Below, in pieces: positions 26,294 through 27,233 of a stretch of 64,000 nucleotides of DNA (positions are counted from its first letter, which is position 1; each line of letters opens with the position of its first letter). The translations under genes and the position numbers were made by a program. The stretch spans positions 1,248,001-1,312,000 of the forward strand of contig OZ250183.1 of the NCBI GenBank assembly GCA_965238225.1, written 5' to 3'. The notes below the pieces were generated by a model. That model searched no databases, was not told where the DNA came from, and saw only the letters and a program-made list of their open reading frames with translations. Origin of the DNA: Gammaproteobacteria bacterium. GTDB taxonomy: Bacteria; Pseudomonadota; Gammaproteobacteria; Eutrophobiales; Eutrophobiaceae.

Positions 26294-26369
<76 letters not shown>

Positions 26370-26387
26370 TGTTTTGATGGGTAAAAA

Positions 26388-26464
26388 TGGGGTGACTGAT
26401 GGGGCTCGAACCCACGACCACCGGGATCACAACCCGGGGCTCTACCAACTGAGCTACAGTCACC
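26388..26464 (-). tRNA. tRNA-His(GTG)
   Basis: G-1 GTGACTGTAGCTCAGTTGGTAGAGCCCCGGGTT-GTG-ATCCCGG...CCCA. Confidence 0.96.
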
Positions 26465-26478
26465 ATAAAATCTTGATT

Positions 26479-27039
26479 TGGTGCGCCTGGCAGGACTCGA
26501 ACCTGCTACCCTCGGCTTAGCTTACCAACTACGCCTTTCGACGCCCTGATTATAACAAGTTTGTGGTCTGGACTATCTCTTCACCATTACAGGTGTCACA
26601 CGTATAGTCTCTACGGAATCCATCTAAAATCAGACGCCAAATTTACATTTTTTGACTGATTACCTGTAGGTATTTTTACCCTCAAAATGATTAAACCAAT
26701 AACAGCAAATGGCGTATGCCAAGTCAATGGGTTCAAAACAATGAGCCCTTAGTCGATTTAATCATCGATTTAATCAAGTTAAGCCTTTAAAATACCCATG
26801 CCGCCCTTCTCGCTTAGCATGCTACATATAGAATATAGTATGCTCATGCCAATATGAGGCAGCCACCGGTTTCCTCGGGATTGCCATCAGCACAGACTGC
26901 ACAGCCTGTCTGTTAAGGGTTCCCCGATATAGTGCGATCCACTTTATAGGTTTTGTTTTCCTATAAAGGCTCCTATTTCAAACACAAACAAGTGTTTGAT
27001 GTTAAAGGCCGATGCTCTATCCAAATGAGCTACAGACGC
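26479..27039 (-). tRNA. tRNA-Arg(TCT) split by an intron: 5' exon 27039-27005, 3' exon 26520-26479
   Basis: Joined exons give a 77-nt cloverleaf GCGTCTGTAGCTCATTTGGATAGAGCATCGGCCTT|CTAAGCCGAGGGTAGCAGGTTCGAGTCCTGCCAGGCGCACCA. Confidence 0.93.
26521..27004 (-). ncRNA. Group I intron, 484 nt, in the tRNA-Arg anticodon
   Basis: P ATATCGGGGAA (26930-26920), Q GCAATCCCGAGG (26884-26873), R CGTAGAGACTATA (26615-26603), S AAGAGATAGTCC (26581-26570); U before 5' splice site; terminal G at 26521. Confidence 0.92.
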
Positions 27040-27058
27040 AAATATCACACCAAATTAT

Positions 27059-27135
27059 TGGTCGGGGCAGAGAGATTCGAACTCCCGACCCTCTGCTCCC
27101 AAAGCAGATGCGCTACCAAGCTGCGCTATGCCCCG
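27059..27135 (-). tRNA. tRNA-Pro(TGG)
   Basis: CGGGGCATAGCGCAGCTTGGTAGCGCATCTGCTT-TGG-GAGCAGA...CCA. Confidence 0.96.
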
Positions 27136-27233
27136 ACATATCTCTTACTGCCTGCACTGAAGCAGGATGGCGATGATACGCACCAGTATAGTTTGCGTCA
27201 ATTGGCCAAGGCCGCTTAAAAGACACAAATACA

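What the first reader, a model, noticed from the sequence alone, without database searches (positions are those of the whole stretch)
26479..27039. Group I intron inserted inside the anticodon (U34^C35) of tRNA-Arg(UCU)
Seen: the two exons join into a complete 77-nt tRNA-Arg with anticodon loop CU-UCU-AA, in its usual place between tRNA-Pro and tRNA-His. The 484-nt insert folds as a group I ribozyme. P1 is exon GGCCUU|UA with UAGGAGCC (U.G at the splice site, one C.A mismatch), capped by a UCAAACAC/GUGUUUGA hairpin. P10 is 3' exon CUA with UAG. P2 CUUUAUAGG/CCUAUAAAG, P3 UCGCAC/GUGUGA, P4 UCGGGG/UCCCGA, P7 GACUA/UAGUC, P8 CACC/GGUG, a GAAA-capped P9 hairpin and a terminal G are present. Known: classical bacterial tRNA group I introns are in Leu(UAA), fMet, Ile(CAU) and Arg(CCU). 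Inference: I do not recall an Arg(UCU) 34/35 intron in a gammaproteobacterium, so host and site may be new. If this is the only AGA reader, translation depends on splicing.
Basis: partly seen in the sequence, partly recalled or inferred. Interest (0 to 1): 0.88.

Follow-up and report, generated by a model that had tools for sequence, protein, structure and literature searches.

The report
Self-splicing intron splitting tRNA-Arg(UCU) gene
The only transfer RNA gene in this small bacterial genome able to read the common arginine codon AGA is split by a self-splicing group I intron with a decayed homing-endonuclease gene; the feature is real but common in related bacteria and already noted in print.

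Summary
On the minus strand, 27039-27005 (35 nt) and 26520-26479 (42 nt) join into a 77-nt tRNA-Arg(UCU). They are split after U34 by a 484-nt insert (27004-26521). AGA makes up 24% of Arg codons.

The insert is a group I intron of the tRNA anticodon-loop (IC3-like) kind. Rfam RF00028 scores only 16.6 bits. However, on 61 homologous pre-tRNAs my P1-P10 model pairs in 98.4% of cells, against 35-41% when partners are slid, and 31 pairs show compensatory changes.

The intron's P6 loop holds the wreck of a PD-(D/E)XK (I-Ssp6803I-like, PF11645) homing-endonuclease gene. That gene is intact in 34 of 35 long relatives.

The novelty claim fails. I found the same intron at the same site as 109 distinct sequences, mostly in Gammaproteobacteria. 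Papers already mention intron-split tRNA-Arg-TCT genes in Beggiatoaceae, and a 2020 preprint widens tRNA intron types from 4 to 21.

Splicing itself is inferred, not shown. Verdict: a real, almost certainly functional, ordinary new member of a known kind.

The parts
27005..27039 (-). 5' exon of tRNA-Arg(UCU), 35 nt, ending C32 U33 U34
   Evidence: Matches uninterrupted congener genes.
26521..27004 (-). Group I intron, 484 nt, ending in omega-G at 26521
   Evidence: ARAGORN i(36,484). Weak RF00028 hit of 16.6 bits. Covariation on 61 homologues.
26479..26520 (-). 3' exon, 42 nt, starting C35 U36 A37 and including an encoded CCA
26970..26975 (-). Internal guide UAGGAG. GAG (26972-26970) pairs with C32 U33 U34 (27007-27005) as P1, with U34.G at the splice site. 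UAG (26975-26973) pairs with C35 U36 A37 (26520-26518) as P10.
   Evidence: for positions. In one search P1 is invariant in 61/61 and P10 is paired in 70.9% of cells.
26978..26999 (-). Hairpin capping P1 (UCAAACAC / GUGUUUGA)
   Evidence: G004 has UCGAAC/GUUCGA at the same place.
26942..26968 (-). P2 (26968-26960 with 26950-26942) with an A-rich loop
   Evidence: 8 of 9 pairs show compensatory changes
26932..26937 (-). P3 5' strand UCGCAC, pairing with GUGUGA at 26601-26596
   Evidence: 4 of 6 pairs compensatory, 100% paired
26875..26927 (-). P4 (26927-26922 with 26880-26875) enclosing P5/P5a (26918-26884). P5 carries a CCUUAAC...GAUGG motif that resembles a tetraloop receptor; the resemblance is recalled, not tested.
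   Evidence: the closing pair of P4 switches A-U/U-A 32:29; P5a has 2 of 3 pairs compensatory
26615..26874 (-). P6 (GGA 26874-26872 with UCC 26617-26615) and P6a (CC 26869-68 with GG 26621-20), closing the L6 loop
   Evidence: 100% paired, nearly invariant
26622..26867 (-). L6 insert: remnant of a PD-(D/E)XK (PF11645-type) homing-endonuclease gene. Relative to the G004/G014 copies it has a deletion of about 210 nt (junction near 26707/26706), a 12-nt tandem duplication (about 26775-26753) and a one-base insertion.
   Evidence: alignment A1. tblastn finds only residues 112-136 of the G014 enzyme, E 4e-5. No Pfam hit for the 41-aa ORF.
26611..26736 (-). 41-aa leftover ORF joining an N-terminal piece to the C-terminal tail of the endonuclease. 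Its stop codon UAG lies in J6/7.
26571..26609 (-). Core: P7 (GACUA 26609-05 with UAGUC 26575-71), P3 3' strand (26601-26596), P8 (26595-92 with 26585-82) and J8/7 AAGAGA
   Evidence: RF00028 alignment. In one search P8 has 2 of 4 pairs compensatory and P7 is invariant; its 3' strand was fixed by my search pattern.
26525..26566 (-). P9.0 (CC 26566-65 with GG 26526-25), P9 (26559-56 with 26548-45) and P9b with a GAAA loop (26544-40 with 26535-31)
   Evidence: P9 3 of 4 and P9b 4 of 5 pairs compensatory
27059..27135 (-). tRNA-Pro(UGG), upstream neighbour in the same cluster
26294..26463 (-). tRNA-His(GUG) 26388-26463 and tRNA-Lys(CUU) 26294-26369, downstream neighbours
27173..27201 (-). Promoter-like site TTGACG-17-TATCAT upstream of tRNA-Pro. 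This is a consensus match only.

Best explanation
This is a group I intron of the bacterial tRNA anticodon-loop kind (IC3-like). It sits between U34 and C35 of the genome's only tRNA-Arg(UCU) gene. I infer that the Pro-Arg-His-Lys cluster is transcribed together. The intron would then fold into the P3-P9 core and its guide UAGGAG would pair across the whole anticodon loop, CUU by P1 and CUA by P10. Free guanosine would attack after U34 (the U.G wobble), and the 3' OH of U34 would then attack after the terminal G at 26521. That would ligate a normal 77-nt tRNA that reads AGA. The intron arrived as a mobile element carrying a PD-(D/E)XK homing endonuclease gene (I-Ssp6803I family) in the loop of P6. 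In this genome that gene has since decayed to a remnant of about 246 nt, so the intron is now immobile. The ribozyme has been kept intact because the cell needs the tRNA. Shown here: the gene structure, the uniqueness of the gene, the conserved and covarying fold, the endonuclease homology and the empty-site alleles. Inferred: transcription, self-splicing and the history.
For: (1) ARAGORN with introns calls tRNA-Arg(tct) i(36,484) and finds no other Arg(tct) gene in the complete 1.72-Mb genome. (2) AGA is 3607 of 14800 Arg codons (24.4%) in 641 ORFs of 300 aa or more, and 618 of those 641 ORFs contain it. (3) Three congeners (G005, G008, G001) carry an uninterrupted tRNA-Arg(tct) in the same Pro-Arg-His-Lys cluster. 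These genes are 74-75 of 77 identical to the joined exons. (4) On 61 homologous pre-tRNAs my 79-pair model is paired in 98.4% of cells, against 34.8-41.4% for partners slid by 1-3 columns. 31 pairs change on both sides, and 0 of 500 shuffles reach that. (5) The window's intron keeps 123 of the 126 intron columns that are at least 95% conserved in the other 60 sequences. All 3 departures are at unpaired positions. (6) RF00028 aligns the P7/J8-7 core (16.6 bits). A short relative scores 36.4 bits, and the related tRNA-Leu(UAA) introns of family members score 55.1 and 50.2 bits against a cut-off of 50. (7) The G014 intron ORF hits PF11645 at E 2.6e-38 and PDB 2ost_A at E 1e-4. 34 of 35 distinct introns of 634 nt or more hold it full length. 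The window keeps only the tail. (8) None of the 6 intron-bearing relatives found among the 60 searched has an uninterrupted copy.
Against: No RNA data from this organism were found, so splicing is not shown. RF00028 is far below its gathering score here (16.6 vs 50). 9 of 10 Arg-intron loci of relatives gave no RF00028 hit at E<=0.01. P1 and P7 never vary in my set, so covariation says nothing about them, and my search pattern fixed the P7 3' strand. The structure was derived from the window's own sequence, which favours it against the slid controls. One departure of the window's intron is a G-to-A change in J3/4, a position held by 59 of the 60 others. The 246-nt dead insert in L6 could slow folding.
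Confidence: 0.9

Rival explanations
1. The intron is removed in vivo but is no longer autonomous. With a 3-bp P1, a J3/4 change and a 246-nt dead insert in L6, it would need a host protein (an RNA chaperone or a recruited cofactor) to fold and splice at a useful rate.
For: The window departs from a 59/60-conserved J3/4 base and carries the L6 remnant. The Bartonella paper (PMC7717549, passages) notes that group I introns are presumed to need protein help in vivo.
Against: 123 of 126 conserved positions are kept and all helices are intact. Introns with far larger L6 inserts (634-697 nt in total) are the common form in relatives, so L6 tolerates inserts.
Confidence: 0.15
2. The split gene is dead. 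The insert no longer splices, and AGA is read some other way or is being abandoned.
For: No direct RNA evidence for this organism. RF00028 is below its cut-off.
Against: There is no other Arg(UCU) gene. AGA is the second most used Arg codon and occurs in 618 of 641 long ORFs. The exons are 74-75/77 identical to intact congener genes, and the differences fall in the acceptor stem, which is still fully paired. The ribozyme core is conserved.
Confidence: 0.03
3. The insert is not a group I intron but some other insertion (IS fragment, MITE, group II fragment) or an assembly artefact.
For: The Rfam gathering search finds nothing here.
Against: There is covariation across P2-P9 and the ends are exact, U before and G at the end. 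The same element sits at the same site in 109 distinct sequences. A DNA run holds 0.93 of the stretch's sampled words, though it may be the sample the window was assembled from.
Confidence: 0.01

Closest known systems
tRNA-Leu(UAA) group I intron of cyanobacteria, plastids and some proteobacteria (type 'Leu.3Ug', subgroup IC3 according to Williams 2020)
   Same: The insertion point is the same, after the third loop base U34, and the 5' loop bases CUU pair with a GAG guide in the same way. The core is homologous: the window's intron 3' part matches Leu(UAA) introns of family members at 75-77% identity, and the motifs CGGGGAAACCU, AAUCCCGAG, GUAGAGACU and AGUCCAGACCACAAA are shared.
   Different: The host tRNA and 3' exon differ (CUAAG instead of AAAAU). 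P8 and P2 differ. The Leu introns pass the RF00028 cut-off (55.1 and 50.2 bits) while the Arg introns do not. The window's own tRNA-Leu(UAA) gene is uninterrupted.
[quoted passage not shown]
   Same: The same isoacceptor is interrupted, in gammaproteobacteria, and the gene is likewise missed by annotation. MAGs labelled Thiotrichales/Thiotrichaceae in my set carry the U34/C35 intron (L056, L121, L134).
   Different: The passages give neither splice site, structure nor subgroup (the authors say these were not determined). Identity with this lineage is therefore likely but was not checked here.
tRNA-Arg(CCU) group I intron of alphaproteobacteria (Agrobacterium; Bartonella BbgpI, PMC7717549, passages)
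   Same: A group I intron in an arginine tRNA anticodon loop, missed by annotation. It was shown to splice in vivo and to self-splice in vitro.
   Different: The anticodon is CCU. By Williams's naming the site is 'Arg.5Ug', after loop position 5 (base 36), not after U34. No endonuclease gene is mentioned in the passages I saw.
Synechocystis PCC 6803 tRNA-fMet intron encoding I-Ssp6803I (Haugen 2007, PMC1995217, passages: 655-nt intron, 150-aa PD-(D/E)XK enzyme)
   Same: An anticodon-loop group I intron carrying a PD-(D/E)XK homing endonuclease of the same Pfam family. The long relatives here are 634-697 nt with ORFs of 136-198 aa, most of them 136-149 aa.
   Different: The host tRNA and site differ ('fMet.2Ug'). 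The proteins are only distantly alike (E 1e-4 to 2ost_A). In the window the gene is a wreck.
Azoarcus tRNA-Ile(CAU) intron (recalled; only the abstract of PMC13168695 was seen)
   Same: A small IC3 ribozyme with a very short P1 next to an intact anticodon stem and a GAAA-capped P9. These features are recalled, not tested.
   Different: The host tRNA and site differ ('Ile2.5Ug'), and it has no L6 insert.

Membership tests
Group I intron (Rfam RF00028) | Conserved core helices P3-P8 with the P3/P7 pseudoknot | tested here: met
   P3, P4, P5a, P6, P7 and P8 are 99.5-100% paired in 61 sequences. Compensatory changes occur in P3 (4/6 pairs), P4 (1/6), P5a (2/3), P6/P6a (1/5) and P8 (2/4). P7 is invariant.
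Group I intron (Rfam RF00028) | U.G wobble closing P1 at the 5' splice site, formed with an internal guide sequence | tested here: met
   U34 (27005) lies opposite G 26972. The pair is present in 61/61 sequences but never varies, so it is supported by sequence only.
Group I intron (Rfam RF00028) | Terminal guanosine (omega-G) before the 3' splice site | tested here: met
   G at 26521. All 116 validly mapped introns end in G (L108, the one false mapping, dropped).
Group I intron (Rfam RF00028) | Score at or above the Rfam gathering threshold (50 bits) | tested here: not met
   16.6 bits, E 0.12. The best Arg-intron relative scores 36.4 bits, and related Leu introns score 55.1 and 50.2. Williams 2020 notes that none of the model's seeds was bacterial.
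Group I intron (Rfam RF00028) | Guanosine-dependent self-splicing | not testable with these tools
   No RNA run of this organism was found.
Bacterial tRNA anticodon-loop introns (IC3) | Insertion within the 7-nt anticodon loop, with the exons forming a standard tRNA | tested here: met
   All four tRNA stems are 100% paired in 61 sequences.
Bacterial tRNA anticodon-loop introns (IC3) | Sequence homology to an accepted IC3 intron | tested here: met
   BLAST matches to tRNA-Leu(UAA) introns of relatives (E 2e-6 to 3e-4). That Leu.3Ug introns are IC3 is taken from Williams 2020. No formal subgroup classifier was run.
PD-(D/E)XK homing endonuclease, PF11645 (I-Ssp6803I family) | Full-length domain with a Pfam score above the cut-off | tested here: not met
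   The window has no Pfam hit for the 41-aa ORF. Only residues 112-136 are recognisable, and about 210 nt are deleted. Relatives meet the feature: the G014 ORF scores 131.6 bits against a cut-off of 26.1.

The most novel reading that the evidence does not exclude
The endonuclease-free intron might not be mere baggage. It could be kept as a checkpoint that ties the supply of the only AGA-reading tRNA (24% of Arg codons) to the guanosine-nucleotide and Mg2+ state of the cell, so that splicing rate throttles translation in a small-genome bacterium. The strict conservation of the ribozyme after the endonuclease gene died (123 of 126 conserved positions kept) would then reflect more than the lack of a way to delete it precisely.
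Probability: 0.06. Interest if true: 0.55.

Novelty: new member of a known kind. Interest (0 to 1): 0.3.

Why it matters
The practical value is for annotation. Standard tRNA finders and the Rfam group I model both miss this gene. The genome would therefore look as if it had no reader for AGA, its second most used arginine codon.

The biology is a clean textbook picture of the life cycle of a homing intron. In one genus there are empty sites (G001, G005, G006, G008), a copy with a frameshifted endonuclease gene (G004) and a copy with a deleted one (this window). Intact copies occur in other families.

The U34/C35 tRNA-Arg(UCU) intron with its PD-(D/E)XK endonuclease is abundant in Gammaproteobacteria. 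In what I could read it has no experimental description. It would be an easy system for a new endonuclease specificity aimed at the tRNA-Arg(UCU) anticodon arm.

Tried and rejected
RNA evidence. The look-up of sequencing runs found no RNA run that holds this organism. RNA runs held at most 0.09 of the sampled words; one run of unknown kind held 0.93 and may be the source sample.

I laid four metatranscriptome runs at 85% likeness. One contig in X2 and one in X3 join 26520 to 27005, skipping exactly 484 nt. The shorter side is 29 letters, below the tool's own caution line of 30. The exons are near-identical across many species, so these contigs may come from relatives' mature or intronless tRNAs. 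I do not count them as support. The same holds for contigs that skip 242-250 nt of L6 (short-form introns of other organisms) and for the parts without cover.

RF00028 across the whole genome gave a second weak hit (14.7 bits) at G000:C1:818299-818465. It overlaps the end of a 409-aa ORF and was not found again by cmscan, so I treat it as chance.

The YrlA, STAXI, U54, tmRNA and Plastid-ycf2 hits are all far below their cut-offs and lie on tRNA-like parts. I rejected them.

A full-length covariance model of the intron was not built.

Papers. MacGregor 2013c (PMC3697557) and Zhao 2009 (PMC3008403) are not held. MacGregor 2013a is in a subscription journal and I did not see it. Table 1, Fig. 3 and the supplementary alignment of Williams 2020 are images or supplements that I could not see. 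They probably list an 'Arg.3Ug' class, but I cannot confirm that.

PMC12513839 mentions Arg-TCT and group I introns in unrelated contexts.

My claim that no experimental description exists rests only on searches.

Full report
WHAT IS THERE.

Read on the minus strand, window 27039-27005 (35 nt) and 26520-26479 (42 nt) are the two halves of a tRNA-Arg gene with anticodon UCU. They are separated by 484 nt (27004-26521). The first half ends with loop bases C32 U33 U34 and the second begins C35 U36 A37 A38.

ARAGORN in its default mode finds only the neighbours: Pro(tgg) 27059-27135, His(gtg) 26388-26463 and Lys(ctt) 26294-26369. With introns allowed it calls tRNA-Arg(tct) i(36,484) at exactly these coordinates on the whole genome.

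The genome is one contig of 1,722,049 bp with 40.1% G+C, scored 100% complete. It has 41 uninterrupted tRNA genes. Its arginine set is ACG, CCG, CCU and this split UCU gene, so there is no second AGA reader.

In 641 ORFs of at least 300 aa, AGA accounts for 3607 of 14800 arginine codons (24.4%, second after CGT). It occurs in 618 of the 641 ORFs.

THE INSERT IS DISCRETE AND THE EMPTY SITE EXISTS.

Three species of the same genus (G005, G008, G001) carry an uninterrupted tRNA-Arg(tct) in the same Pro-Arg-His-Lys cluster. These genes are identical to the window's joined exons at 74-75 of 77 positions.

Among 60 relatives searched, the uninterrupted anticodon arm was found in 32. That is 17 of 36 in the family and 4 of 10 in the genus. 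The intron-bearing form was found in six family members: G004, G014, G015, G016, G018 and G021. None of these six has an uninterrupted copy. Several genomes with neither form are incomplete MAGs, so absence is not shown for them.

IT IS A GROUP I INTRON.

Rfam at gathering thresholds finds nothing here. In E-value mode RF00028 aligns 26553-26699 with 16.6 bits (E 0.12, cut-off 50), matching the P7 and J8/7 signature.

The stronger evidence is comparative. I scanned species-representative genomes for a 15-base core motif followed 28-58 bases later by G|CTAAG.

ARAGORN of these 119 loci tRNA-Arg(tct) with an intron. It gives 24 another name, which are mis-parsed exons, and makes no intron call for 14.

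My own exon mapping covered all loci held. It examined 130 pattern matches: 117 mapped, 9 had no 5' exon found and 4 were cut by a contig end. One of the 117 (L108) proved a false mapping. That leaves 116 genes and 109 distinct introns.

I aligned the window's pre-tRNA with the 60 distinct introns of at most 330 nt, that is 60 of the 109 (alignment A2). I then scored a 79-pair structure derived from the window's sequence.

- 98.4% of 4816 cells form standard pairs, against 34.8-41.4% when 3' partners are slid by 1-3 columns.
- 31 pairs change on both sides, and 0 of 500 shuffles reach this.
- Compensatory changes occur in P2 (8 of 9 pairs), P3 (4/6), P4 (1/6, an A-U/U-A switch at 32:29), P5a (2/3), P6/P6a (1/5), P8 (2/4), P9 (3/4) and the GAAA-capped P9b (4/5).
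- P7 and P1 never vary and so are untested. The P7 3' strand was fixed by my search pattern.
- Because the structure was drawn from one of the sequences, the slid control is somewhat generous to it. The compensatory counts do not share that weakness.

The window's intron keeps 123 of the 126 intron columns that at least 57 of the other 60 sequences share. Its three departures are at unpaired positions: the first base of L2, J3/4, and the internal loop between P6 and P6a (column 461). 12 of the 61 sequences depart at least as often.

SPLICE-SITE GEOMETRY.

The guide UAGGAG (26975-26970) is complementary to the whole stretch C32-A37. GAG pairs with CUU (P1, with U34.G at the cut) and UAG pairs with CUA (P10).

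P1 is present in 61 of 61 sequences. The three P10 pairs are present in 61, 50 and 18 of 61.

It also reuses the C that opens P2. In two Saprospiraceae-labelled MAGs the exon reads CUGCCUU while the guide stays GGAGCC. A short P1 next to an intact anticodon stem is what I recall for the Azoarcus and Anabaena tRNA introns; that is recall, not a test.

THE EXTRA LENGTH IS A DEAD HOMING-ENDONUCLEASE GENE.

Intron lengths in the set are bimodal, 202-444 nt and 634-697 nt after dropping the false mapping L108 at 805 nt. The window's 484-nt intron and L024's 506-nt intron lie between these two groups.

The long forms carry an ORF in the loop of P6, on the tRNA strand. Its stop codon lies in J6/7.

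The 136-aa ORF of G014 (L003:244-654, minus) matches PF11645 (PD-(D/E)XK endonuclease) at E 2.6e-38. It matches PDB 2ost_A at E 1e-4. I recall that entry as I-Ssp6803I; the tool names it only 'putative endonuclease'.

By tblastn, 34 of 35 distinct introns of at least 634 nt hold the gene full length in one frame, at 55-70% identity to G014 (G014's own copy excepted). G004, the window's congener, has it frameshifted. Eleven introns of 319-506 nt, the window's among them, keep only fragments.

Aligned with G004 and G014 (A1), the window lacks about 210 nt of the gene, from the codons just before the conserved FDL...IQVK stretch onward. It also has a 12-nt tandem duplication, a one-base insertion and in-frame stops. 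Only residues 112-136 are recognisable (E 4e-5).

The 41-aa ORF at 26611-26736 is a fusion of leftovers and has no Pfam hit.

The pattern fits the usual cycle of invasion, endonuclease decay and persistence or loss. The window sits late in that cycle.

HOW COMMON IT IS, AND WHAT IS IN PRINT.

In an even sample of the class, the strict pattern occurs in 10 of 401 genomes, counting the window's own.

Named records include Woeseiaceae, Thiodiazotropha, Sedimenticola, Wenzhouxiangella, Lentisalinibacter, Chromatiales, Methylococcales and Thiotrichales. A few MAGs are labelled Saprospiraceae, Bacteroidetes, Rhodospirillaceae or Deltaproteobacteria.

Flood et al. [quoted passage not shown] They left structure and type undetermined.

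Williams 2020 (whole text) lists the four classical types: Leu.3Ug, Arg.5Ug, fMet.2Ug and Ile2.5Ug, all IC3. The preprint extends them to 21 types from 5292 introns. The table that names the types is an image I could not read.

Haugen 2007 (passages) records I-Ssp6803I in the 655-nt tRNA-fMet intron of Synechocystis.

So the kind, the host class and the isoacceptor are all known. This is one more member, in a decayed state.

WHAT IS NOT SHOWN.

No RNA run of this organism was found. The exact 484-nt joint seen in two metatranscriptome contigs cannot be assigned to it. Transcription from the promoter-like site at 27201-27173 is a consensus match only. Self-splicing is inferred from conservation and from the cell's need for the tRNA.

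VERDICT.

Noticed in passing
L009:1313-1636 (G058, another family of the class): A tRNA-Arg(UCU) gene split by a 247-nt group I-like intron at a different place, after U36 (ARAGORN i(38,247); 5' exon ends CCUUCU, 3' exon starts AAGCC). That is the site used by the classical Arg(CCU) introns.
   Followed up: partly
L020:1432-1771 (G058): A second split tRNA in the same genome. ARAGORN calls it Leu(taa) i(38,266), but the 3' exon starts CAUAA, which suggests a CAU anticodon (Met/Ile2) with an intron further 5' in the loop.
   Followed up: no
L008, L010, L011, L012, L014 (G023, G028, G019, G012, G038): Classical tRNA-Leu(UAA) group I introns (252-475 nt) occur in relatives. Two that I tested (L010, L014) pass the RF00028 cut-off. 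The window's genome has an uninterrupted tRNA-Leu(taa).
   Followed up: partly
L044, L054, L084, L104 (records labelled Saprospiraceae/Saprospirales, Rhodospirillaceae, Deltaproteobacteria): The same Arg(UCU) U34/C35 intron occurs in MAGs labelled outside Gammaproteobacteria. This means either transfer across phyla or mis-binned or mislabelled contigs. In the two Saprospiraceae-type genes the exons are clearly different (GGUCCCG... acceptor stem), which favours real transfer.
   Followed up: no
G306:C1:4886-4961 and G306:C2:3054229-3054304: One genome of the class sample holds two identical copies of the intron's 3' end plus exon junction, on two contigs.
   Followed up: no
window 26435-26514 and 27011-27093 (minus): Partial YrlA (Y RNA-like) matches of 34.4 and 20.3 bits span the junctions between adjacent tRNA genes. 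They are far below the cut-off of 69 and look like an artefact of the tRNA-like module of that model.
   Followed up: partly
window 26559-26690 and 26867-26947, as covered by contigs of runs X1-X3: Metatranscriptome contigs from aquatic and marine-sediment samples cover the intron core of short-form relatives (joints skipping 242-250 nt of L6). RNA, or contaminating DNA, of related introns is therefore present in those libraries.
   Followed up: no
L108 (record labelled Verrucomicrobia): The search pattern matches here, but I could find no tRNA-Arg exons around it; my automatic mapping was false. What the core-like sequence is doing there is unknown.
   Followed up: no
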